From assembly GCA_964596735.1 (NCBI GenBank), contig CAZQVF010000005.1, positions 13,328 to 77,327 of the forward strand: a DNA stretch of 64,000 bases, in the 5' to 3' direction. This DNA is from an uncultured Gammaproteobacteria bacterium (GTDB taxonomy: Bacteria > Patescibacteriota > Patescibacteriia > UBA2591 > UBA6264). Within the stretch, counting starts at the first letter, position 1, and every line of letters starts with the position of its first letter. A model generated the notes under the pieces. That model searched no databases, was not told the DNA's origin, and saw only the letters and a list, made by a program, of their open reading frames with translations. A program made the translations under genes and the position numbers. This document shows, piece by piece, positions 149-59,118 of this stretch.

Positions 149-1549
149 ATGAAACGAATTCAAAGCGAAGAAACAATTAATAAAATTAAAAAAGAAGTTA
201 AGCTTTGTGGTTGGGTAAACAGCCGTCGCAACATGGGTAAAATTGTTTTTATTGATTTAAGAGACCGTTCTGGCTTAGTCCAGATTGTTTTTATTCCCCA
301 AGAACTTGATCAAGAATCGCAAAAAGCAGTTAAAGAAACTCGACCTGAATTTGTTGTTGAGGTTAAAGGGGTTGTCCGTCTAAGACCGAAAAATCAAATT
401 AACAAAGATTTAATAAGCGGAAAAATAGAAATCTTAGCTAAAAAATTATCTATTTTAAATCAAGCTAAGACTACGCCATTTGAAATTGACAATGAAACCC
501 TTAAAGCCAACGAAGAACTTCGTCTAAAATACCGTTATTTAGACTTGCGGCATGAACGCATGAAAAATAATCTAATTCTTCGTCATCAAGTTATCAAATT
601 TATCCGTGATTATTTAGATAAAGAAAAATTTTTAGAAATTGAAACACCAATTCTAACTAAAGGCACACCAGAAGGTGCTAGAGAATTTATTATTCCTTCT
701 CGACTTTATCCTGGAAAATTCTATGTTCTCCCTCAAGCCCCTCAACAATTTAAACAACTTTTAATGGTTGCTGGTGTTGAAAAATATTTCCAAATTGCTC
801 GTTGTTTTCGTGATGAAGACACGCGGGGTGATCGTCAACCAGAATTTACTCAATTAGACATTGAAATGAGTTTTGTTGATCAGCATGAGATAATGGATTT
901 AATTGAAAAATTAACTATTGCCCTGATTAAAAAGATAGCTCCAAAAAAGAGAATTTTAACTAAACCCTTTCCCAGGATTACTTATGAACAGGCAATAAAA
1001 AAATATAAAACTGATAAGCCTGATCTAAGAAAGAATAAAAAAGATCCTAATGAACTAGCCTTTTGCTTTATCACAGACTTTCCTCTTTTTCAGTATTCAA
1101 AAACAGAAAAGAAAAATATCTCTGTACACCACCCTTTTACTGCCCCTCAAAAAAAAGATATCCCTATTTTAAGCAAAAAACCCCTAAAAGTATTAGCCCA
1201 GCAATATGATTTTGTTTGTAATGGTTTTGAGTTAGGAGGAGGTTCAATTAGAATTCACCAAAGAGAAATCCAGGAAGAAATTTTTAAAATTCTAAAAATT
1301 AATGAACAAGAAACAGAAAGGCGCTTTGGACACCTCCTTAAAGCTTTTGAATATGGAGCCCCTCCTCATGGCGGCATTGCTCTTGGCTTAGACAGAATAA
1401 TTATGATCCTTGCCAATGAGCCTAATATTCGCGAAGTTATCCCTTTTGCTAAAACAGCTGACGCCAAAGACTTAATGATGGGAGCACCAAGTGAAATTCC
1501 AGAAGAACAATTAAAACAAGCTCATATTGAAATCAAAAAGAAAAAATGA
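149..1549 (+). CDS. aspS: aspartyl-tRNA synthetase (short form, probably non-discriminating)
   Basis: ORF 134..1549. ATG at 149 gives MKRIQ..., matching the AspRS N-terminus. Class II motifs FRDEDTRGDRQPEFTQLDIEMSF, GGGSIRIH, GAPPHGGIALGLDR. Confidence 0.9.
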   Translation: MKRIQSEETINKIKKEVKLCGWVNSRRNMGKIVFIDLRDRSGLVQIVFIPQELDQESQKAVKETRPEFVVEVKGVVRLRPKNQINKDLISGKIEILAKKLSILNQAKTTPFEIDNETLKANEELRLKYRYLDLRHERMKNNLILRHQVIKFIRDYLDKEKFLEIETPILTKGTPEGAREFIIPSRLYPGKFYVLPQAPQQFKQLLMVAGVEKYFQIARCFRDEDTRGDRQPEFTQLDIEMSFVDQHEIMDLIEKLTIALIKKIAPKKRILTKPFPRITYEQAIKKYKTDKPDLRKNKKDPNELAFCFITDFPLFQYSKTEKKNISVHHPFTAPQKKDIPILSKKPLKVLAQQYDFVCNGFELGGGSIRIHQREIQEEIFKILKINEQETERRFGHLLKAFEYGAPPHGGIALGLDRIIMILANEPNIREVIPFAKTADAKDLMMGAPSEIPEEQLKQAHIEIKKKK

Positions 1550-2442
1550 GATTCTTTAGATTAGCTTTACAAAACTTTTTTAGAAATTTTTGGCTTTCTC
1601 TAACCAGTATTATTATCATACTCTTAATGCTGTTTTCCCTAAGCCTAGTTTATAGTTTTAACACCCTGGGCCAGCAAATATTAAGCTCTTTTAAAAATAA
1701 AATGGATTTGGGTGTGTATTTAAACCAAAACATTGATTTAAATCAATTAAGCCTTTTAAGGTCTGAGTTGGAGAATATGGATGAAATAAAAGAGGTATAT
1801 TATCTTACCCCTGAAGAATCTTTAGAAAATTTTAAAGAAAAACATGTAAATGATCCTTTAATTTTGAAATCATTAAAAGAACTGAATGAAAATCCCTTAG
1901 GAGGAGCTTTAACTTTAAAATTTTATGATCCTTCGGGTTATGAAAAAGTTATTTCAGTTATTAATCGTCCTGTTTATAGCGCTTTAATCCGAGATCAAAA
2001 TTTTTATGATTATCAAGAATTAATTCATGTTTTTAATCAATTTAATCAAAAAATTACAGGAGCAGGCTTAAGTATCAGTGGAATTTTTGCTTTAATTACT
2101 ATTTTGGTAATTTTCACCACTATTAAACTAGGGGCTCTTTCTCGTCGTCGAGAAATTAAAATTATGAGACTAGTTGGAGCTTCGGCCTGGTCTATTCGTA
2201 CTCCATTTTTAATTGAAGGTGGTCTATATGCATTTATTGCCTGGATCATAAACTCCGCTCTCATTATTCCTTTGGTCTATTTTTCTCAACCATATTTACA
2301 AAAATTTATTGAACTAGATTTTAATTTATTTATTTACCTGAAAACTGGCGCTTTTCATTTTTGGTTTGGCCTTTTACTCTTTGCTTTAATTGTTTCTCTA
2401 ATCGGTAGCAGTCTGGCAATTAAAAAATATTTAAAATTTTAA
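1546..2442 (+). CDS. ftsX: FtsX-like cell-division/ABC permease protein
   Basis: N-terminal TM helix, ~130 aa extracytoplasmic domain, then 3 C-terminal TM helices (FtsX topology). Overlaps the aspS stop by 4 nt. Confidence 0.65.
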   Translation: MRFFRLALQNFFRNFWLSLTSIIIILLMLFSLSLVYSFNTLGQQILSSFKNKMDLGVYLNQNIDLNQLSLLRSELENMDEIKEVYYLTPEESLENFKEKHVNDPLILKSLKELNENPLGGALTLKFYDPSGYEKVISVINRPVYSALIRDQNFYDYQELIHVFNQFNQKITGAGLSISGIFALITILVIFTTIKLGALSRRREIKIMRLVGASAWSIRTPFLIEGGLYAFIAWIINSALIIPLVYFSQPYLQKFIELDFNLFIYLKTGAFHFWFGLLLFALIVSLIGSSLAIKKYLKF

Positions 2443-2457
2443 TACTCTTTCTTTTTC

Positions 2458-3468
2458 ATGAAGTTAAAAGAGTTTAATTATTCTCTTCCTCAAGAATTGA
2501 TTGCCCAGAAACCTATTCGACCTCGAGATCATTCAAGATTAATGGTTTTAAATAGAAAGAATCATACTATTATTCATGATTCTTTTTATAATCTAGATAA
2601 ATACTTAAAACCAAATGATGTTTTGGTTGCTAATAATTCAAAGGTTATACCCGCTCGCTTGTTTGGGCAGAAAACAACTGGGGGAAAAACAGAAATTCTC
2701 CTTTTAAGACCCCTAAAGAATAATCTATGGGAAATCGTTCTCAGGGGAAAGGGCCAACAAAATAAAGAAATTAAATTCAGCAAAAAGCTCTTTGGTATTT
2801 TAAAGCAACAAATCTCAGACCAGACATGGGAAATAGAGTTTAATTTAACCAATAATGCCCTACTCAAACAAATATATAAATTAGGTCACACTCCAACTCC
2901 CCCGTATATTAAACGTGCTTCCAGCTTACAAGAATATCAGACAACATATGCTCAGACTCCTGGTTCAGCGGCAGCGCCAACGGCTGGATTTCACTTTACA
3001 AAAAAATTAATTAAAAAATTAAAAAAACAAGGAAATGAATTTGAATTTATTACCCTCCATGTTGGTTTAGGAACTTTTCAGCCAGTAAGAACAGAAAACA
3101 TTGAAGAACATCAAATACATGCCGAGTGGGGAGAAATAACAAAGCAAACCGCAGAAAAATTAAATCAAGCAAAAGAAAACAAACAAAGAATTATTGCTAT
3201 TGGGACAACAACAACAAGAATTTTAGAGGCATTTACTCTTGAAAAAAAAGTAATTTCAGGAGAAAAATGGATCAATACCTTTATTTATCCTGGCTATGAG
3301 TTTAAATTCATCAACGGCTTAATTACTAATTTTCACCTCCCTCAATCAAGTCTTTTAATGTTGGTTTGTGCTTTTGCTGAAAAAAACTTTATTTTTCAAG
3401 CTTATGAGCAAGCCATAAAAGAAAAATACAGATTTTATTCTTTTGGTGATGCAATGTTAATTATCTAA
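2458..3468 (+). CDS. queA: S-adenosylmethionine:tRNA ribosyltransferase-isomerase
   Basis: MKLKEFNYSLPQELIAQKPIRPRDHSRLMVL... typical QueA N-terminus and length. Confidence 0.9.
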   Translation: MKLKEFNYSLPQELIAQKPIRPRDHSRLMVLNRKNHTIIHDSFYNLDKYLKPNDVLVANNSKVIPARLFGQKTTGGKTEILLLRPLKNNLWEIVLRGKGQQNKEIKFSKKLFGILKQQISDQTWEIEFNLTNNALLKQIYKLGHTPTPPYIKRASSLQEYQTTYAQTPGSAAAPTAGFHFTKKLIKKLKKQGNEFEFITLHVGLGTFQPVRTENIEEHQIHAEWGEITKQTAEKLNQAKENKQRIIAIGTTTTRILEAFTLEKKVISGEKWINTFIYPGYEFKFINGLITNFHLPQSSLLMLVCAFAEKNFIFQAYEQAIKEKYRFYSFGDAMLII

Positions 3469-3510
3469 AACTTGATTTTTTTAAAAATTCTCCTATAATA
3501 AACTTAATTT

Positions 3511-3582
3511 GGCCAGGTAGCCAAGTAGTAAGGCAGGTGTCTGCAAAACACCTATACACGGGTGCAATTCCCGTCCTGGCCT
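3511..3582 (+). tRNA. tRNA-Cys (GCA)
   Basis: GGCCAGG acceptor stem pairing with CCTGGCC; anticodon stem GTGTC/GACAC with loop CTGCAAA (anticodon GCA); canonical T-arm; followed by a T-run. Confidence 0.85.
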
Positions 3583-3585
3583 TTT

Positions 3586-3613
3586 TTGTTTTTCTTTTAA
3601 TCTCTGGTATAAT
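3586..3613 (+). promoter_or_regulatory. sigma70-like promoter for the 5'-3' exonuclease gene (TTGTTT-N16-TATAAT); -10 ends 6 nt before the ATG
   Basis: TTGTTT 3586-3591, TATAAT 3608-3613, ATG at 3620. No Shine-Dalgarno sequence. Confidence 0.4.
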
Positions 3614-3619
3614 AAAAAC

Positions 3620-4549
3620 ATGAAAAAAAATCCAAAACTTATTCTTATTGATGCCCAGGCCGTACTTCATCGCGCTTGGCACGCTTTACCTCAACTAACT
3701 GATTCTCAAGGCAGGACAACCAATGCTGTTTATGGTTTTACAGCTCTTTTATTAAAACTTATTAATGAACAAAAACCTGATTATCTGGCAATTGCTTTTG
3801 ATACTAAGGCTCCTACTTTTCGTCATGAAAAATATGAGGCGTACAAGGCAGGAAGAGAAAAACAACCTCAGAATTTTTATGATCAAATCGACTTTACCAA
3901 GGACATTATTAAACCATTTGATATTCCTGTTTTTGAAAAAGACGGTTTTGAGGCCGATGACCTAATTGGAGCAATTGTGAGAGCACAGAAAAAAAATATC
4001 CCCAATCTTGAATGTTTAATTGTTACTGGTGATTTGGATTTGTGTCAATTAATTGACACAAAAACCTCAGTTTATTTTCTTAGACATGGAATTTCCCAAA
4101 TAAAGATCTATGACCAAAAAGCTGTTAAGGAACGCTTTGATTTGTCGCCTCAACAATTAATTGATTTTAAAGCCTTGAGTGGGGATCCTTCAGATAATAT
4201 TAAGGGTGTTCCTGGTATTGGCCCAAAAACAGCTTTGAACTTAATTAAAAAATTCAAAAACATAGAGAAACTTTATCAACACCTGGAAGGATGTGTCAAA
4301 ACAAAGAAAAGGTGTTTAATTAAAGAATCATTAATGCACCTTCTTTTAAAAAACAAAAAACAAGTTTTTTTGGACAAAGAATTAGTAACTATTGTACAAA
4401 AAATTCCTGGATTAAATCTAAGAAAGCTAAAATGTTTAAAAGCTTTTGATCTAGAAAAAATTGCTCATATCTTCCAGGGATTTGGATTTAAAAGTTTAAT
4501 TAAAAGATTGGAAAAAAATGGTTTAGGCCAGCAAAATAAGCTTTTTTAA
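3620..4549 (+). CDS. standalone 5'-3' exonuclease (FEN / Pol I N-terminal domain homolog)
   Basis: LILIDAQAVLHRAWHALP...GFTALLLKLINEQKPDYLAIAFD... plus H3TH region GDPSDNIKGVPGIGPKTA. No polymerase domain follows. Confidence 0.85.
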   Translation: MKKNPKLILIDAQAVLHRAWHALPQLTDSQGRTTNAVYGFTALLLKLINEQKPDYLAIAFDTKAPTFRHEKYEAYKAGREKQPQNFYDQIDFTKDIIKPFDIPVFEKDGFEADDLIGAIVRAQKKNIPNLECLIVTGDLDLCQLIDTKTSVYFLRHGISQIKIYDQKAVKERFDLSPQQLIDFKALSGDPSDNIKGVPGIGPKTALNLIKKFKNIEKLYQHLEGCVKTKKRCLIKESLMHLLLKNKKQVFLDKELVTIVQKIPGLNLRKLKCLKAFDLEKIAHIFQGFGFKSLIKRLEKNGLGQQNKLF

Positions 4550-4551
4550 TT

Positions 4552-5556
4552 ATGATTGGATTTTTCTATGGCTCAGACACTTATCGTTCAAAACAAAAGT
4601 TAATGAGCTTAAAAAAAGAATTTATTCGTCGAAAAGACCAAAAGGGCCTTAATGTTTCAACTATTGAAGGGGCTAACCTAACCTTAGACGAACTAAGAAA
4701 AGTCTTTTTAAGTACTGGTCTTTTTGCTCAAAAAAGATTACTAATTATCAAGGGCCTTTTATCTCAACGTTTTTTAAAAAAAAATTTAGAAGAAAAAGAA
4801 GAATTATTTAAAGAAATAATAAAAATCATTAAAAAAACGCGGCAAAGTCAGGATAACTCTCTTATTTTCTGGGACGAAGAGATTAAAGAAAAACAGTTAA
4901 ATCCCCTTCAAAAACGCATTTATCAACTGTTAAAAAAAGAAAAATATGCTGAAGAATTTAAATTATTAACAGGACTTGCTTTAAAAAATTGGATAAAAAA
5001 ACAAGCCGCTCAAGAAAATATTCAGATTGAAAACCAGGTTATTGATCTACTTATTAAAACTAATAGAGATAATCTCTGGCTTTTAAAAAATGAACTTGAT
5101 AAATTAATTGCCTGGCAGTTGTTGTCAAAAAAAGCTCAAAAAATTTGTTTGTCTGATGCCCAAAGTCTTGCTCCACCTGAAATTGAACAAGACATATGGC
5201 GTTTAATTGATGCCTTAGGGCACCGAGATAAATTAAAAGCTCTCAAAATTTTGTCTGATCAGTTTAAAAATGGAGTTGAAACCTCTAAAATCATTACTCT
5301 TTTAGCACATCAATATCGTACTATTCTAAGAATAAAATCCTACCTGCAAACTCACCCCGTTATTAATCAATATCAAATAGCAAAAACACTCTCTCTTCAT
5401 CCTTTTGTCTGTAAAAAGGGATTGATTCAAGAAAAAAATTATACATTAGAGGAATTAAAAAAAATCTATCAACAATTATTAAAGATAGACTTTTTAAGAA
5501 AAACTCGGAAAATCGATTCCGAGATGTTATTAGATTTGCTAATTATTAAATCCTAA
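4552..5556 (+). CDS. holA: DNA polymerase III delta subunit
   Basis: 334 aa; N-terminus MIGFFYGSDTYRSKQKLMSLKKEF is typical of HolA; directly downstream of the exonuclease gene. Confidence 0.6.
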   Translation: MIGFFYGSDTYRSKQKLMSLKKEFIRRKDQKGLNVSTIEGANLTLDELRKVFLSTGLFAQKRLLIIKGLLSQRFLKKNLEEKEELFKEIIKIIKKTRQSQDNSLIFWDEEIKEKQLNPLQKRIYQLLKKEKYAEEFKLLTGLALKNWIKKQAAQENIQIENQVIDLLIKTNRDNLWLLKNELDKLIAWQLLSKKAQKICLSDAQSLAPPEIEQDIWRLIDALGHRDKLKALKILSDQFKNGVETSKIITLLAHQYRTILRIKSYLQTHPVINQYQIAKTLSLHPFVCKKGLIQEKNYTLEELKKIYQQLLKIDFLRKTRKIDSEMLLDLLIIKS

Positions 5557-5823
5557 TTATTTTGACAAACTGTTTATTTTTTTAACTAATCGCGACTTAC
5601 TCCGAGCCGCGGTATTTTTTTTCAAAACACCCTTTTGCACTGCTCGATCAAAAGATTTTTGTAATTTTGCATAAAGATCAACCGCCTCTTTCTTTTTCTT
5701 AGCGGCAATCGATTTTAAAAACTGTCGTTTTAACCAGCTAATATTTGCTTTGGTTTTTTTGTTACGTTCTGCACGTTTTTTTGACTGGCGAAGCGCCTTA
5801 ACTGCTGACTTTTTAATTGGCAT
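5557..5823 (-). CDS. rpsT: 30S ribosomal protein S20
   Basis: MPIKKSAVKALRQSKKRAERNKKTKANI... S20 signature. Confidence 0.9.
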   Translation of the reverse strand: MPIKKSAVKALRQSKKRAERNKKTKANISWLKRQFLKSIAAKKKKEAVDLYAKLQKSFDRAVQKGVLKKNTAARSKSRLVKKINSLSK

Positions 5824-55083: not shown

Positions 55084-56823
55084 TTAATGTTGTCCAGGGG
55101 GTAAAATTTTAACCCCCTGCTTTTTATTTTGTGAATATTTAGTGTGGCAAACTAAATGAATCTTTTCCTTTTCGTTTAAAAATTCTTTATAAACTTTTTG
55201 AACAACCGGATTTTGGTGTGCTGATCTAATATTTTTTCTTTGATCAACCTTGTACAAACCCTTAGCCCGACTCGCTCTGATTTCTGAATCAACCGGGACC
55301 GGCTGACCTCCTCCACCAACACAGCCTCCAGGACAGGCCATTACCTCAATATAATCATAAGCAGGAGAATCACTTTTTAGCTCTTTTAAAATCCTTTTGG
55401 CTTGACCAATACCATTAATTACAGCTATTTTAAGGATATGATTCTTAATCTTAATCTTGGCTCTTTTAACTCCATCCATTCCTCGAACCTGTTCAAATTC
55501 TAATCTTTTTAAAGGCTTATTTGTTATTTTTTCTACTACTGTTCTCAGGGCAGATTCCATTACCCCACCTGTTGCCCCGTAGATAACACCAGCTCCTGAA
55601 GGAAAGCCCAAGGGTGTATCCAGCTTTTGAGGAACAAGTTTTTTTAAATCAATCTTTCTCTTTTTTAAGAGACTGGCTAATTCCCTGGTTGTTAAAACAT
55701 AATCTACCGGCAACAAACCATTAATTTTCAGCTCTTTTCTAGCAATTTCGTGTTTTTTGGCTACACAAGGCATAATAGAGACAACAATAATTTTCTTTGG
55801 GTCGATGCCTTGTTTTTTAGCCCAAAAAGTTTTTATTAAACCTCCCAAAATTATATGTGGCGAGCGAACAGTGGTCAGATTTGGAATAAATTCAGGGAAA
55901 TAAAATTCAACAAATTTTACCCAAGCAGGGCAACAAGATGTAAACATGGGCAACCTTCCTTTTCCTTTTAACCTTTTAGTAAATTCCTCTGCTTCTTCGA
56001 CTGTAGTAAAATCCGCTCCTACGCTTACATCAAAAACTTTTTCTACACCAAGTTTTTTTATCCCAGCCGCCAACTTTTCAGTAATAAGCGTGCCTAAAGA
56101 AATATCAAACTCCTCGCCAATACTTGTTCTAATTGAAGGAGCAAATTGAACAACAACTAATTTATCTTTTTGTTGAAAAGGTTTTTCAATTTCTTCAAAT
56201 TCTCCAACCCCTTCAAAAGCTCCAGCCGGACAATGAACAATACACTGTCCACAATAAATACAATCCTTATTTTTATCTTTAGTAGGTAATATTTTTGTAT
56301 GTACTCCCCTGTTTTTCATTTCTAAAAAACCGACTCCTTGTTTTTCACACATTTCAACACAATTATAACAATCGATGCACTTGGAAGAATCAAAAATAAG
56401 AGAATTCCCAAATCGATAAACTAGAAAATCTTTTTTCCTGTCAATAAATCGATTAGTCTTGAGTCGCTGTTTCTTTGCTAGTTTTAAAAGCTGACAACGG
56501 GCCTCCCAAACACAGTCATTACATTCTTCAAAATGTTGAGCAAAAATTAATTCTAAATTGATTCTTCTTGCTCTCCTAATTCTTGGTGTGTCAGTCATAA
56601 TTTCCATGCCTGGCTTAACTTTAGTGGAACAAGATGTTTGTAAGTCTTTAATGCCTTTTATTTTAACAATACAAATACAACAATTAGACTTTATCTCTAA
56701 ATCTGAATGATAACAAAATGCTGGAATTTCAATCCCATGTTTTTTAGCCACTTGAAAAACTGTCTGCCCCTCAAAAGCCTGGACTTTCTTTCCGTTAATG
56801 GTTATTTGAAATCTTTTATTCAT
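55084..56823 (-). CDS. hydA: [FeFe]-hydrogenase catalytic subunit HydA
   Basis: N-terminal 2Fe-2S and 4Fe-4S ferredoxin modules; H-cluster motifs TSCCPAW, MPCVAKKHE and EVMACPGGCVGGGGQP. Confidence 0.9.
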   Translation of the reverse strand: MNKRFQITINGKKVQAFEGQTVFQVAKKHGIEIPAFCYHSDLEIKSNCCICIVKIKGIKDLQTSCSTKVKPGMEIMTDTPRIRRARRINLELIFAQHFEECNDCVWEARCQLLKLAKKQRLKTNRFIDRKKDFLVYRFGNSLIFDSSKCIDCYNCVEMCEKQGVGFLEMKNRGVHTKILPTKDKNKDCIYCGQCIVHCPAGAFEGVGEFEEIEKPFQQKDKLVVVQFAPSIRTSIGEEFDISLGTLITEKLAAGIKKLGVEKVFDVSVGADFTTVEEAEEFTKRLKGKGRLPMFTSCCPAWVKFVEFYFPEFIPNLTTVRSPHIILGGLIKTFWAKKQGIDPKKIIVVSIMPCVAKKHEIARKELKINGLLPVDYVLTTRELASLLKKRKIDLKKLVPQKLDTPLGFPSGAGVIYGATGGVMESALRTVVEKITNKPLKRLEFEQVRGMDGVKRAKIKIKNHILKIAVINGIGQAKRILKELKSDSPAYDYIEVMACPGGCVGGGGQPVPVDSEIRASRAKGLYKVDQRKNIRSAHQNPVVQKVYKEFLNEKEKIHLVCHTKYSQNKKQGVKILPPGQH

Positions 56824-57809
56824 TTAGGTTGAATAACCTTTTTAATTAAAGTTGTAAAGGGCAAAGCCACATTTTTCCCAAAAGGACAAAAGCTGGTTTG
56901 ATCTAAGACAAATAATAAATCCCTAAGTGTTCTCTTGTCAATTTGTCTTTGATTTAAAATTTGCCTAACACGGTAAACCCCTTCTCTGCAAGGAACACAT
57001 TTTCCACAATTCTCTTTAAAAAAGAAATCAATCCATTTTTTCATTAAAAAATTTGGATTAGTTTTTCTAAGATTATAAACAAAAATTGTCCCGACTCCGC
57101 CTACTTTTTGGTTTAACTCCTTTAAGAGTAAAATGCGACCACTAGCTCCTCCTCCTGCCTGAACAAAAAAATCAAAGTTAGGCCAATTGTCTGTTTTTTT
57201 TAAAATCTGTTTCACGCTCAATCTTTCTGATAACTCATAAACATCTGGATTCTTTACCTTATTTAAAGAATAAAAGCGCGTTTTCTTGTACTTATTTTGG
57301 ATAATTTGCGCTATATAATAAAAAGTTTCTACATTGTTGACTAAAGTAGGATAACCCCAAAGTCCTTTTTCAGGCGGATATGGCGGGCGAGCCTGAGGGA
57401 TAGGATCTTTTCCTTCTAATGTTTGAATTAAAGTAGTTTCTTCTCCGCAAAGATACCCGGCTTGTTTTTTAAAAATCTTTATGGATAAATTATTAACTTT
57501 AATAATTTTTTCTAATGATGCTTTAAATTTTTGATAATAATCTTTACGAAGATAAATATAAGCTGAACTATGATCAATGGTTTTTAAAGCAATTTCGATT
57601 CCTTTGATTAATTCCTCTGGATAATTATGAAGAATAAAACCATCTTTAAATGTCCCTGGTTCTCCTTCAGATCCGTTACAAATAATATATTTCTTCTTCG
57701 CTGAAACCCTTTTAACCATTCCCCACTTTAAGCCAGTAGGAAATTCTGCTCCACCTCGTCCGGTTAAGCCAGAATCTTTTATTTTTTCAATTACATTTTG
57801 AGGACTCAT
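56820..57809 (-). CDS. NuoF-like flavoprotein subunit (hydrogenase beta subunit, truncated form)
   Basis: GRGGAEFPTGLKW NADH/FMN-binding signature and C-terminal 4Fe-4S CGKCVPCREG; only 329 aa. Confidence 0.75.
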   Translation of the reverse strand: MSPQNVIEKIKDSGLTGRGGAEFPTGLKWGMVKRVSAKKKYIICNGSEGEPGTFKDGFILHNYPEELIKGIEIALKTIDHSSAYIYLRKDYYQKFKASLEKIIKVNNLSIKIFKKQAGYLCGEETTLIQTLEGKDPIPQARPPYPPEKGLWGYPTLVNNVETFYYIAQIIQNKYKKTRFYSLNKVKNPDVYELSERLSVKQILKKTDNWPNFDFFVQAGGGASGRILLLKELNQKVGGVGTIFVYNLRKTNPNFLMKKWIDFFFKENCGKCVPCREGVYRVRQILNQRQIDKRTLRDLLFVLDQTSFCPFGKNVALPFTTLIKKVIQPK

Positions 57810-57840
57810 AGATTAGTTGAAAGTTAAGTGGTCGTCATCG

Positions 57841-57866
57841 GGGTGCCCGGAATCGAACCCGGGTCA
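57841..57866 (-). other. GC-rich tRNA T-arm-like hairpin between the zinc-ribbon gene and the NuoF-like gene
   Basis: Minus sense CCCGG-GTTCGATT-CCGGG then CACCCCG in an otherwise AT-rich spacer; no 5' tRNA half. Confidence 0.3.
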
Positions 57867-58727
57867 AATATTTTCGATTTCTAATTCTAAAATTTCTGAA
57901 AGACGATTCACAGGAAATAAATCCTTAGGATATATTTCTATTAATTTAAGATTGCATTTTTTACAAATATTTTGTTTTTCCCTAACTAATTCGTCATATC
58001 TTTTTATTGCTCCAATTAGTCCAAAAAATTCTATAATAGTATCTTTAACGACAAAATCGGCTGTTAAAGACTTGTTTTGAGGATAAGGAACATTTCTTTT
58101 GTGCTTAATATTCTTACTAAGAAGCCAATCATCTATTATTTTTTCAGAAAAAGAATCGCATTTATGACCATCTTTGGCAATAAATTTTTTAGCAAACAAA
58201 ACTGGGTTAGGTTCAAACCCAGCGGATTTAACAGCCTTATTCCATGTCCCGAATCTTAGTCTCGCTGCATCATAATGATGATATTCTCTTTTAACAGGAA
58301 TTCTTTTTTCGCGCTTATAAAATGCTTTTATTTCATTGGTAATCTGCTTACTACTTACTACTATTTTAGAATTTATTAAATTGTAACAAGATTTTGAACA
58401 ACATTTTCGTTCACCAAAAAACTCTTTACCACAATTAATACATGTCTTACTTTTTCTCCTTTTTTGATTACTTACAATAGCAGCACAAGATTGGGAACAA
58501 AAAACCATGCCCGTTCTCGATTTTCTAATTTCAGAAGGCGGACGAATTACTATTCTGTTGCATACAGGATTTGCACAAATTCTTCTGACACTCCTGATTC
58601 GATCTTTCTTTAAACACTTTTGAGAGCAATACTGTTTCCAACCAAATTTTTTAGCTTCATTTACTCGCCCCACTGTTCTAAAAAATTTTTGACCACAAAA
58701 GGCACAATTAATTTTAACTAAATTCAT
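57864..58727 (-). CDS. multi-zinc-ribbon protein with C-terminal Vsr/DUF559-like endonuclease-fold segment
   Basis: At least five CxxC pairs in the N-terminal 120 aa; FGTWNKAVKSAGFEP motif; C-terminal ...TADFVVKDTIIEFFG resembles the DUF559 aDF..p...IE.DG core. Confidence 0.4.
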   Translation of the reverse strand: MNLVKINCAFCGQKFFRTVGRVNEAKKFGWKQYCSQKCLKKDRIRSVRRICANPVCNRIVIRPPSEIRKSRTGMVFCSQSCAAIVSNQKRRKSKTCINCGKEFFGERKCCSKSCYNLINSKIVVSSKQITNEIKAFYKREKRIPVKREYHHYDAARLRFGTWNKAVKSAGFEPNPVLFAKKFIAKDGHKCDSFSEKIIDDWLLSKNIKHKRNVPYPQNKSLTADFVVKDTIIEFFGLIGAIKRYDELVREKQNICKKCNLKLIEIYPKDLFPVNRLSEILELEIENI

Positions 58728-58739
58728 AAAAATATTTAA

Positions 58740-58817
58740 TATCGGGCTGGCCGGCTCCGCCCCGGCGACCTCATCTCCCCCAGAGATGCGCGCTAACTAA
58801 CTGCGCCACAGCCCGAC
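58740..58817 (-). ncRNA. GC-rich tRNA-like cloverleaf (degenerate tRNA-Pro-GGG-like; function unknown)
   Basis: Minus sense GTCGGGC/GCCCGAT acceptor, GCGC-9nt-GCGC D-arm, CATCT-CTGGGGG-AGATG anticodon arm, GCCGG-GGCGGAG-CCGGC T-arm. T-loop and D-loop lack canonical GG/TTC residues and there are 2 extra nt before the acceptor 3' strand. Confidence 0.4.
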
Positions 58818-58826
58818 ATTCAAAAT

Positions 58827-59006
58827 CTAAACTCCAAAATTCTTTTTCAAAGATTTTAAACACTTGGTACAAATCTTTATCCTCTTGCCAGATATCTTTT
58901 TTGTCTGTAAATTTAAATATTGTCGCCTTTTTGTGGCGATATTTGAATGGGACCTGGTAAAGCTTGTTTGTGGACCACGTCCACAAATTGAACAACGTCT
59001 TGCCAT
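58827..59006 (-). CDS. rpmB: 50S ribosomal protein L28
   Basis: MARRCSICGRGPQTSFTRSHSNIATKRRQYLNLQTKK L28 signature. Start at internal Met; track ORF begins at 59054. Confidence 0.8.
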   Translation of the reverse strand: MARRCSICGRGPQTSFTRSHSNIATKRRQYLNLQTKKISGKRIKICTKCLKSLKKNFGV

Positions 59007-59040
59007 AATCGTATCTTTTAAATATTTTAATTTAGTATAT

Positions 59041-59118
59041 AAGAACCTGCTCACTTCGTTCGCAGAACCTTGAAATTAAATATTTATTGTATAAAATATT
59101 AATGTACTTCAATTATAA
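59041..59118 (+). promoter_or_regulatory. conserved promoter-like repeat element upstream of the M50 protease gene
   Basis: AAGAACCTGctcacttcgttcgCAGAACCTTGAAATTAAATATTTATTGTATAAAatattaatgtacttcaATTATAAT. Confidence 0.5.

What the first reader, a model, noticed from the sequence alone, without database searches (positions are those of the whole stretch)
57841..58817. GC-rich tRNA-like structures punctuating the rpmB / Zn-ribbon / hydrogenase transcription unit
Two GC-rich islands stand out in the AT-rich minus-strand string. One is a 77-nt element (58740-58817) that folds into a full cloverleaf of tRNA dimensions: 7-bp acceptor, D-arm, anticodon arm with loop CUGGGGG (anticodon GGG), 5-nt variable loop, T-arm. 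It lacks the universal D-loop GG and T-loop TPsiC residues and has extra nucleotides at two junctions. The other is an isolated T-arm-like hairpin plus acceptor-like strand (57841-57866). Both sit exactly in intergenic gaps between co-oriented genes. tRNA-like elements can act as RNase P/Z processing sites that cut polycistronic transcripts, or as pseudo-tRNAs.
Basis: partly seen in the sequence, partly recalled or inferred. Interest (0 to 1): 0.5.

Follow-up and report, generated by a model that had tools for sequence, protein, structure and literature searches.

The report
Homing-nuclease cassette in a tRNA-Pro gene
The two "tRNA-like" islands are a real but unusual proline tRNA gene and the leftover 3' end of the tRNA gene it replaced, and they flank a homing-endonuclease-like gene that sits next to this same tRNA in almost every related locus examined.

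The parts
58742..58815 (-). tRNA-Pro(GGG) gene, 74 nt, CCA not encoded. Layout: CGGGCUG UG GCGC AGUUAGUUA GCGC G CAUCU CUGGGGG AGAUG AGGUC GCCGG GGCGGAG CCGGC CAGCCCG A. Variant elbow: A18 G19 in the D-loop, G54 G55 C56 in the T-loop.
   Evidence: ARAGORN. Rfam 45.6 bits. Cloverleaf MFE. In the 9-sequence class alignment the cloverleaf is 100% paired and 12/21 pairs have compensatory changes, reached by 0/500 shuffles. Identical in L141.
58728..58741 (-). 14-nt AT-rich spacer between the tRNA 3' end and the ORF start codon. This is the short-spacer class, which implies co-transcription with the tRNA.
   Evidence: Sequence. The spacer is 2-26 nt in most rpmB-context loci.
57864..58727 (-). 287-aa ORF of free-standing homing-endonuclease type. 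Three CxxC...CxxxC zinc fingers of MYM/FCS type (aa 1-118; 58374-58727). PF18780 HNH_repeat (aa 125-172; 58212-58355). Vsr-like PD-(D/E)xK nuclease domain (aa ~181-284; 57876-58187). Invariant residues include E195, D224, E233 and D245.
57838..57866 (-). Remnant of the displaced resident tRNA-Pro(GGG): variable loop (UGAC), T-arm with canonical UUCGAUU loop, acceptor 3' strand CACCCCG and A73. Its UGA supplies the ORF stop codon.
   Evidence: 27/29 identical to the tRNA 3' end of L011, at the same distance from the nuoF-like start. Homology with L011 and L015 resumes at 57866, and with L010 at 57859. nhmmer E 0.0027. The copy in L141 has decayed differently, CCCAG against CCGGG.
57867..58833 (-). 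Tract with no counterpart in the closest ORF-less relative. It holds the last ~7 nt of rpmB, a spacer, the new tRNA, the ORF and the junction. It is 967 nt here, against 62 nt in L010 (rpmB end plus the 5' 49 nt of its tRNA).
   Evidence: blastn of the window against L010, L011 and L015. Alignments A3 and A4.
58827..59006 (-). rpmB (ribosomal protein L28), the conserved left flank. The left break in homology lies in its last codons.
   Evidence: Pfam PF00830. L28 lies upstream of the tRNA in most short-spacer loci. Alignment A3.
56820..57809 (-). NuoF-like flavoprotein gene, the first gene of the hydrogenase pair and the right flank. It starts 28 nt after the remnant, as it does after the intact tRNA in relatives.
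   Evidence: Pfam PF01512 and PF10589. Synteny in L010, L011 and L015.

Best explanation
The locus is a tRNA-Pro(GGG) gene that has been overwritten by a small mobile cassette.

The cassette consists of a complete tRNA-Pro(GGG) gene (58742-58815) followed by a free-standing gene of homing-endonuclease type (57864-58727). That gene has an N-terminal zinc-finger/HNH_repeat DNA-binding region and a C-terminal Vsr-like nuclease domain.

Proposed mechanism (inferred):
1. The nuclease cuts tRNA-Pro(GGG) genes that lack the cassette.
2. The break is repaired from a cassette-bearing copy. The left crossover falls in the conserved rpmB/tRNA 5' side. The right crossover falls in the tRNA 3' part.
3. The recipient ends up with the donor's tRNA plus the nuclease gene. 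The 3' part of its own tRNA survives downstream as a remnant (57838-57866).
4. In later rounds the remnant can serve as a portable right-hand homology arm.

Because an intact tRNA travels with the nuclease gene, no intron or intein splicing is needed to keep the host gene working.

The tRNA itself is functional. It has a variant elbow: A18/G55 in place of G18/U55, with G19-C56 kept.

Shown: the anatomy, the empty sites in relatives, the strict linkage to tRNA-Pro(GGG), the remnants, the nuclease fold, and purifying selection on the tRNA and the ORF.

Inferred: DNA cleavage, its target site, the immunity of the linked tRNA, and the repair pathway.
For: 1. Empty sites. Three related Patescibacteria MAGs have rpmB, tRNA-Pro(GGG) and nuoF with no ORF: L010 (S12 98.6% aa identity), L011 and L015. 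The window and L141 carry the 967-nt tract instead.

2. The remnant. It is 27/29 identical to the L011 tRNA 3' end and sits in the orthologous position. The upstream tRNA differs from the relatives' tRNAs in acceptor stem, D-arm, anticodon stem and T-arm.

3. Linkage.
- Of 81 loci with a homolog (47-62% identity), 77 can be evaluated. In 74 of them a full-length tRNA-Pro(GGG) lies on the same strand 2-90 nt upstream.
- No other tRNA species occurs near any of them.
- Downstream genes fall into 37 clusters among 56 loci.

4. Remnants elsewhere.
- A tRNA-Pro HMM hits the 160 nt after the stop codon in 15 loci, against 0 of 124 control regions.
- CCCGA occurs after the stop in 27/66 unique regions, against 44/390 controls (Fisher p 4e-8).
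- Three loci carry two remnants in tandem: L062, L068 and L088.
- The remnant's acceptor strand and T-loop type often differ from those of the upstream tRNA.

5. The protein.
- PF18780 homing-endonuclease-associated repeat.
- About 700 full-length homologs exist, with invariant acidic residues.
- dN/dS is 0.11.

6. A viral contig. A 31%-identical homolog in a viral tRNA array (L142) lies between a decayed tRNA-Pro-like sequence and an intact tRNA-Pro(GGG).

7. Precedent. T4 SegB is a free-standing homing endonuclease in a tRNA gene cluster. Its 27-bp recognition site contains the conserved T-stem-loop motif, and it spreads its own gene together with the neighbouring tRNA genes (PMC2330249).
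Against: - No enzymatic evidence exists.
- There is no sequence-level match to any characterised homing endonuclease, in PDB sequence searches, NCBIfam or annotated phages.
- The EDxHD histidine has no obvious counterpart in the family alignment.
- The remnant's 5' boundary varies between loci, at model positions 30 to 53, and at the tRNA 5' end in L142. No fixed insertion site can be defined.
- About half of the ORF-linked tRNAs are fully canonical, so what makes the linked copy immune is unknown.
- The family is unusually well conserved for a selfish nuclease (about 50-60% identity, all intact). That would also fit a host function.
- In a simple NJ tree of the ORFs, tRNA classes and ORF clades do not track each other cleanly.
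- Only three empty-site relatives were available.
Confidence: 0.6

Rival explanations
1. The tRNA and the protein form a functional pair. The Vsr/RAP-like domain binds or processes RNA, for example by maturing or protecting this tRNA-Pro(GGG). The pair is inherited or transferred as a unit because the two work together. The remnants are by-products of occasional replacement.
Against: Close relatives run a tRNA-Pro(GGG) at the same site without the ORF. Linked tRNAs include fully canonical ones. PF18780 and tandem zinc fingers are typical of DNA-targeting homing nucleases. The best fold match is a homing endonuclease and then Vsr, both DNA enzymes.
Confidence: 0.13
2. This is a defence or addiction module. 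The nuclease is a defence effector or toxin, possibly aimed at tRNA-Pro(GGG) RNA or at foreign DNA. The linked variant tRNA is a resistant back-up.
For: The C-terminal domain matches the PADLOC phage-defence candidate PDC-S69 at E 1.2e-12. A homolog sits in a viral tRNA array. The linked tRNA in the window has an altered T-loop.
Against: PDC-S69 is an untested candidate. No other defence genes lie nearby. The DNA-level remnants and the replaced tract point to gene conversion at the tRNA locus. Many linked tRNAs are canonical.
Confidence: 0.07
3. One reading: both elements exist mainly as RNase P/Z-type processing signals that cut the rpmB / Zn-ribbon / hydrogenase transcript into separate messages.
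For: All genes are co-oriented with short gaps, and no terminator or promoter signal above chance lies between them. Excision of embedded tRNAs from polycistronic transcripts is established biology.
Against: Element 1 is a conserved, covarying tRNA with proline identity features. Element 2 lacks a 5' acceptor strand and so cannot form an RNase P substrate. It decays differently in the window and in L141. It is absent or of variable extent in other loci.
Confidence: 0.1
4. This is a conventional integrase-mediated island inserted into the 3' end of a tRNA gene, with the tRNA 3' end duplicated as attL/attR.
For: The layout is an intact tRNA, then cargo, then a repeat of the tRNA 3' part.
Against: There is no integrase. 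The cargo is one 864-nt gene. The two 3' ends are only about 18/27 identical and are not an exact att repeat. The whole tRNA and the end of rpmB are replaced, not only the 3' part.
Confidence: 0.02

Closest known systems
Phage T4 SegB, a free-standing GIY-YIG homing endonuclease in the T4 tRNA gene cluster (PMC2330249)
   Same: It is a free-standing nuclease gene next to tRNA genes. It is absent from close relatives. It spreads together with flanking tRNA genes by break repair and replaces the recipient's tRNA region. Its target lies in tRNA gene DNA, with the T-stem-loop motif inside the recognition site.
   Different: The nuclease family differs (GIY-YIG against a Vsr-like fold). SegB is a phage gene, whereas this one is in cellular Patescibacteria genomes. 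Here the linkage is to a single tRNA species, Pro(GGG), and a partial duplicate of the target is left downstream. Activity is not shown here.
I-Bth0305I and the EDxHD (Vsr-like) homing endonuclease family (PMC3239194; PDB 3R3P)
   Different: No similarity is detectable at sequence level. The N-terminus has zinc fingers and an HNH_repeat instead of NUMOD/HTH motifs. The gene is not inside an intron or intein. The histidine of the EDxHD motif was not identified.
Homing endonucleases encoded in group I introns of tRNA genes, such as the PD-(D/E)xK enzymes in cyanobacterial tRNA-fMet introns and the HNH enzymes in Patescibacteria tRNA-Asn introns (PMC13011429)
   Same: A nuclease gene colonises a tRNA gene. 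It occurs in the same phylum. The longest remnant, in L113, starts at the anticodon, the region where tRNA introns insert.
   Different: There is no ribozyme: no group I intron hit in 57700-59100 even at E<=10. The tRNA upstream is complete on its own. Gene function is kept by carrying a whole tRNA copy, not by splicing. tRNA-Pro is not among the intron hosts that paper reports.
Integrative elements that target tRNA gene 3' ends (tyrosine-integrase islands and prophages; from general knowledge)
   Same: An intact tRNA is followed by cargo and then by a copy of the tRNA 3' part.
   Different: There is no integrase, the repeat is not exact, the cargo is a single gene, and the tRNA 5' half is replaced as well.
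PADLOC phage-defence candidate PDC-S69
   Same: The C-terminal nuclease domain is homologous (E 1.2e-12).
   Different: PDC-S69 is an untested candidate. Only the C-terminal 115 residues match. The context here is a tRNA locus, not a defence island.

Membership tests
tRNA (Rfam RF00005), proline isoacceptor GGG | Cloverleaf with 7/4/5/5-bp stems and a score above the curated threshold | tested here: met
   45.6 bits against gathering score 29. ARAGORN call. Cloverleaf as MFE.
tRNA (Rfam RF00005), proline isoacceptor GGG | Stems maintained by compensatory substitutions in relatives | tested here: met
   Nine sequences of the same loop class are 100% paired. 12/21 pairs change on both sides, reached by 0/500 shuffles. 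Slid controls pair at only 36-47%.
tRNA (Rfam RF00005), proline isoacceptor GGG | Universal elbow residues G18 G19 and U54 U55 C56 | tested here: not met
   The D-loop is AGUUAGUUA and the T-loop is GGCGGAG. Only G19 and C56 are kept. Across 56 linked tRNAs, all 27 with U55 have GG in the D-loop. The 27 with G55 have AG at the corresponding D-loop position; three of them contain a GG dinucleotide elsewhere in the loop (L099, L124, L139). This is a consistent variant, not decay.
tRNA (Rfam RF00005), proline isoacceptor GGG | Bacterial proline identity features: C1-G72, A73, G35 G36, G37 | tested here: met
   All are read directly from the sequence in the corrected register. Their role as identity elements comes from general knowledge. 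Charging was not tested.
EDxHD / Vsr-like homing endonucleases | Vsr-like PD-(D/E)xK catalytic fold | tested here: met
EDxHD / Vsr-like homing endonucleases | Composite E, D, x, H, D active-site motif and sequence homology to the family | tested here: inconclusive
   Invariant E195, D224 and D245 have spacing similar to E170, D196 and D222 of I-Bth0305I. No histidine is conserved at the expected place (PMC3239194). No sequence-level hit was found.
EDxHD / Vsr-like homing endonucleases | Site-specific double-strand cleavage of the allele that lacks the gene | not testable with these tools
   Needs purified protein and DNA of empty-site tRNA-Pro(GGG) loci.
Free-standing homing endonuclease genes (SegB-like behaviour) | Present or absent among close relatives at the same locus, with flanking markers replaced | tested here: met
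   The window and L141 have it. L010, L011 and L015 lack it. Homology breaks inside the rpmB 3' end and resumes in the tRNA 3' part.
Free-standing homing endonuclease genes (SegB-like behaviour) | Constant association with one target gene across different genomic backgrounds | tested here: met
   74/77 loci have tRNA-Pro(GGG) directly upstream. Downstream genes fall into 37 clusters among 56 loci. The association also holds in a viral tRNA array.
Group I intron in a tRNA gene | Ribozyme core, and a tRNA that is complete only after splicing | tested here: not met
   No intron family hit at E<=10 in 57700-59100. The upstream tRNA is complete. The remnant's acceptor strand mismatches the upstream 5' strand at one pair.
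HNH endonucleases | HNH catalytic motif (PF01844 or related) | tested here: not met
   Only the accessory repeat PF18780 is found, with no HNH catalytic domain. The PHROG 'HNH endonuclease' hit covers aa 64-161, the finger and repeat region.
Integrase-type tRNA-targeting island | Integrase gene and an exact att duplication of the tRNA 3' end | tested here: not met
   There is a single cargo ORF and no recombinase domain. The two 3' ends are about 18/27 identical.

The most novel reading that the evidence does not exclude
This is an undescribed, widespread family of free-standing Vsr-like homing endonucleases in Patescibacteria, with relatives on viral contigs. It is dedicated to one target, the tRNA-Pro(GGG) gene. 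It avoids any need for an intron or intein by travelling with a full replacement tRNA gene and keeping a fragment of the old gene as a homology arm. A further step: repeated attack on the tRNA gene may drive the unusual T-loop/D-loop variants (G55 with A18) as cleavage-resistant alleles. The precedent is SegB, whose recognition site contains the T-stem-loop motif.
Probability: 0.4. Interest if true: 0.75.

Novelty: new variant of a known kind. Interest (0 to 1): 0.6.

Why it matters
If the nuclease is active, this is a compact and apparently common mobile element of ultrasmall bacteria that spreads by overwriting a tRNA gene with its own copy. It would be a third way, besides introns and inteins, for a homing nuclease to sit in an essential-type gene without harming the host.

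It would also supply a new DNA-recognition scaffold: three zinc fingers, a helical repeat and a Vsr-like nuclease, with a natural target in a tRNA gene.

Separately, the linked tRNAs give a clean natural data set in which the near-universal G18-U55 elbow contact is replaced by A18/G55 while the cloverleaf stays under selection. This bears on tRNA folding, on T-loop modification enzymes and on tRNA gene finders. Standard Rfam filters missed this gene in the full-window scan.

Tried and rejected
- **Group I intron reading** (5' exon = upstream tRNA part, 3' exon = remnant). Rejected: there is no intron hit at E<=10, the upstream tRNA is complete, and its 5' acceptor strand mismatches the remnant.
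- **tmRNA-like reading of element 2.** The match is only 9.8 bits, E 0.2, and reflects the generic tRNA-like 3' end.
- **Terminator role.** The only terminator-like hit at the remnant is on the antisense strand. Counts equal those in shuffles.
- **Integrase island.** No recombinase is present.
- **Sequence-level identification of the ORF.** PDB phmmer and profile searches gave only weak zinc-finger hits. NCBIfam gave none. tblastn against annotated phages gave none.
- **Other copies in the window.** There is no second copy of the ORF, and no further tRNA-Pro fragment apart from the remnant itself.
- **Automatic T-loop/D-loop typing of all tRNA species in the fetched loci.** Unreliable because of register errors. 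Only the hand-checked tRNA-Pro set and the window's tRNA-Cys are used.
- **ORF tree against tRNA class.** The NJ tree gave no clean co-inheritance signal and has no support values, so it is not used as evidence.
- **Literature searches.** Searches for tRNA-Pro with homing endonucleases in CPR bacteria, for PF18780 and for A18/G55 found no prior description. The library is incomplete.
Full report
**The observation**

The region lies on the minus strand of an AT-rich genome, with about 25-35% GC in 60-nt windows. Two islands stand out, at 70% GC (58750-58809) and 48% GC (57820-57879).

ARAGORN calls a tRNA-Pro(GGG) at 58741-58816. The Rfam tRNA model gives 45.6 bits (threshold 29) at 58742-58815 when the region is scanned on its own. 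The whole-window scan with default filters missed it.

The missing D-loop GG and T-loop UUC are real.

The second island reads, on the minus strand, UGA CCCGG G UUCGAUU CCGGG CACCCCG A (57866 to 57838). This is a T-arm with a canonical loop, a 7-nt acceptor 3' strand and a discriminator A, with no 5' half. The first three bases are the stop codon of the upstream ORF.

**The surroundings**

The gene order on the minus strand is:
- rpmB (58827-59006)
- the tRNA
- a 14-nt spacer
- a 287-aa ORF (57864-58727)
- the tRNA fragment
- 28 nt
- a NuoF-like gene (56820-57809)
- an [FeFe]-hydrogenase gene (55084-56823)

The window also holds a tmRNA and an S12-S7-EF-G operon. The best matching genomes are Patescibacteria MAGs.

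**The ORF**

- Pfam finds PF18780, 'homing endonuclease associated repeat', at aa 125-172, and a weak MYM/FCS zinc-finger match.
- The family alignment shows three CxxC...CxxxC fingers and a strongly conserved C-terminal domain. Invariant residues include E195, D224, E233 and Y244; D245 is nearly invariant.
- AlphaFold models are confident: pLDDT 82 for the full length and 87 for the C-terminal domain.
- I-Bth0305I is the prototype of the EDxHD family, which has a modular N-terminal DNA-binding region and a C-terminal Vsr-like nuclease (PMC3239194).
- No sequence-level match exists to any solved structure, NCBIfam model or annotated phage.
- PADLOC's untested defence candidate PDC-S69 matches the C-terminal domain.

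**Empty sites in relatives**

The NuoF-like protein retrieved syntenic loci from other Patescibacteria MAGs. Three of them have rpmB, then a tRNA-Pro(GGG), then the NuoF-like gene 17-27 nt later, and no ORF:
- L010 (S12 98.6%, M50 peptidase 96.5% and NuoF-like 84% aa identity)
- L011
- L015

DNA homology between the window and L010 runs through rpmB to window position 58834, 7 nt before the stop codon, and resumes at 57859. With L011 and L015 it resumes at 57866.

So 967 nt in the window stand in for 62 nt in L010. Those 62 nt are the end of rpmB plus the first 49 nt of its tRNA.

The fragment at 57838-57866 is 27/29 identical to the 3' end of the L011 tRNA and lies in the orthologous position.

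The complete tRNA in the window differs from the relatives' tRNAs in every arm. Its acceptor is CGGGCUG against CGGGGUG, its D-stem GCGC against GUAU, and the anticodon stem and T-arm also differ.

The fragment is therefore what remains of the resident gene. The tRNA now in use arrived with the ORF.

**A second occupied locus**

A second occupied locus, L141 (ORF 93% identical), has the same layout:
- The tRNA is 74/74 identical, although the ORF has dS 0.29.
- ORF dN/dS is 0.11.
- The remnant has decayed differently, with T-stem 3' strand CCCAG against CCGGG.

The tRNA and the ORF are under purifying selection. The remnant is not.

**How general is this?**

The ORF has about 700 full-length homologs in metagenomes. 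I fetched 80 loci at 47-62% identity.

- ARAGORN finds a tRNA-Pro(GGG) on the same strand just upstream in 57 of them, and no other tRNA species anywhere in the flanks.
- A profile HMM built from those tRNAs finds a full-length copy 2-90 nt upstream in 74 of 77 loci that can be evaluated.
- The exceptions are L071, where the tRNA is convergent just downstream, and L080 and L104.
- Downstream genes are diverse: 37 clusters among 56 loci. The ORF is tied to the tRNA, not to an operon.

After the stop codon many loci carry tRNA 3' fragments:
- The HMM hits 15 loci on the ORF strand, against 0 of 124 control regions.
- CCCGA occurs in 27 of 66 unique downstream regions, against 44 of 390 controls (p 4e-8).
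- By eye about a third of loci have a clear T-arm/acceptor remnant.
- Three loci have two remnants in tandem: L062, L068 and L088.

The remnant start varies from the anticodon (L113, model position 30) to the T-loop. The remnant's acceptor strand and loop type often differ from those of the upstream tRNA, so whole tRNAs are being exchanged.

A 31%-identical homolog on a 74-kb viral contig (L142) sits inside a 16-tRNA array. It lies between a decayed tRNA-Pro-like sequence and an intact tRNA-Pro(GGG), which it overlaps.

**The tRNA itself**

Nine loci share the window's loop type, T-loop GGCGGAR and D-loop AGNNAGNNA. In their gap-free alignment every one of 189 stem cells is a standard pair. 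Twelve of 21 pairs show changes on both sides. No shuffle reaches these values, and slid controls pair at 36-47%.

Across 56 distinct ORF-linked tRNAs the T-loop starts as follows:

| T-loop 54-56 | Number of tRNAs |
|---|---|
| UUC | 27 |
| UGC | 13 |
| GGC | 11 |
| AGC | 3 |
| UCC | 2 |

All 27 with U55 have GG in the D-loop. The 27 with G55 have AG at the corresponding D-loop position, although three of them (L099, L124, L139) contain a GG dinucleotide elsewhere in the loop. This reads as a covariation of the tertiary 18-55 contact, with G19-C56 kept. The window's tRNA-Cys (3511-3582) has the same variant.

The odd loops are thus a selected alternative elbow, not a sign of a pseudogene.

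**Mechanism**

The data fit a free-standing homing-endonuclease cassette. The nuclease would cut tRNA-Pro(GGG) genes that lack it. Repair from a cassette-bearing copy would transfer the nuclease gene together with its linked tRNA. One crossover would fall on the conserved rpmB/tRNA 5' side and the other in the tRNA 3' part. The displaced 3' part would remain downstream, where it can later act as a homology arm independent of local synteny. Recombination between the tRNA and the remnant would give a route to precise loss.

The closest experimentally studied analogue is T4 SegB. It is a free-standing homing endonuclease in a tRNA cluster. Its 27-bp site contains the T-stem-loop motif, and it spreads its own gene with the neighbouring tRNA genes (PMC2330249).

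The steps that involve cleavage, target site and immunity are inferred. About half of the linked tRNAs are canonical, so altered loops cannot be the general immunity mechanism.

**Rivals**

- *A co-functional tRNA-protein pair.* RAP-like RNA-binding relatives share the fold. This is weakened by relatives that use the tRNA without the ORF.
- *A defence or addiction module.* Its only support is the hit to an untested PADLOC candidate.
- *Transcript punctuation as the purpose.* This fails for the remnant, which cannot form an RNase P substrate and decays. Excision of the real tRNA from a polycistronic transcript is nevertheless expected.
- *An integrase island.* This is excluded by the gene content.
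- *A group I intron.* This is excluded by the absence of any ribozyme hit and by the completeness of the upstream tRNA. The published survey of tRNA introns in Patescibacteria does not list tRNA-Pro (PMC13011429).

**Verdict**

The underlying feature is a new variant of a known kind. It is a Vsr-like free-standing homing-endonuclease-type gene strictly linked to tRNA-Pro(GGG). It carries a replacement tRNA and leaves target-gene remnants. It is widespread in Patescibacteria.

I found no prior description in the searchable literature, which is incomplete.

Noticed in passing
window 3511-3582 (+): tRNA-Cys(GCA) has T-loop UGCAAUU and D-loop AAGUAGUAA, with no GG. This is the same G55/A18-type elbow seen in half of the tRNA-Pro(GGG) genes, so the variant is not restricted to the nuclease-linked tRNA.
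   Followed up: partly
window 58742-58815 (-): The whole-window Rfam gathering scan did not report this tRNA, although it scores 45.6 bits in a short-region scan. The default filters lose it, probably because of the non-canonical T-loop. ARAGORN likewise misses many tRNA-Pro(GGG) genes of the GGC and AGC loop classes in related loci (L100, L106-L110, L113-L117, L124, L126, L127, L138, L139).
   Followed up: yes
L091, L103, L106, L109, L111, L117, L121, L125, L130, L135, L138: the 30-45 nt before the ORF start codon: In loci with a long tRNA-ORF spacer (44-90 nt) a conserved motif precedes the ORF: TTGAC(w), then TTCGGGTT(t)TATTCGGTA, then a TAAAAT-like hexamer. It looks like a promoter with a conserved TTCGG repeat in its spacer. 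A hairpin terminator sometimes precedes it, after the tRNA. It may be an autoregulatory site.
   Followed up: no
L080 ~90-155, L104 ~2440-2495 (upstream of the ORF); L118 ~2190-2250 (downstream): An unidentified shared element, AAAA(T/A)AGGTTCG(A/C)GCT(T/A)CGTT(C/T)AGTAATTGCGA, stands where the tRNA or remnant would be expected. It has no Rfam match at gathering score.
   Followed up: partly
L142 (IMGVR_UViG_3300037047_000216) 1015-5706: This viral contig carries a 16-tRNA array. A 315-aa distant homolog of the ORF (2465-3412) runs into tRNA-Pro(GGG) (3403-3482), and its stop codon is the UAG at tRNA positions 8-10. A decayed tRNA-Pro-like sequence lies upstream (2376-2430).
   Followed up: partly
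L071 1728-1799: In this exceptional locus the tRNA-Pro(GGG) is on the opposite strand, 64 nt downstream of the ORF, with a hairpin terminator between them. This may be an inversion.
   Followed up: no
L010 4908-4978; L062, L074, L083, L091, L101 and others: Several tRNA-Pro(GGG) genes have anticodon loop UCGGGGA, with C at position 33 where U is nearly universal.
   Followed up: no
window 55084-57809 against L010 5001-6985: Identity to the closest relative drops across the insertion. S12 is 98.6% and M50 96.5% aa identical on the left. The NuoF-like protein is 84% and the hydrogenase 82% on the right. L010's NuoF-like match is about 20 residues longer. This could reflect faster evolution or a recombination boundary at the tRNA locus.
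   Followed up: no
L004 3363-4907, L006 3096-4505: In two otherwise identical metagenome contigs the hydrogenase gene is called as two pieces (64 aa plus more than 398 aa). This may be a frameshift or a strain variant.
   Followed up: no
window 57845-57864 (+): The only terminator-like hit near the finding is the remnant's T-arm hairpin read on the antisense strand and followed by a T-rich run. Counts do not exceed those in shuffles.
   Followed up: yes
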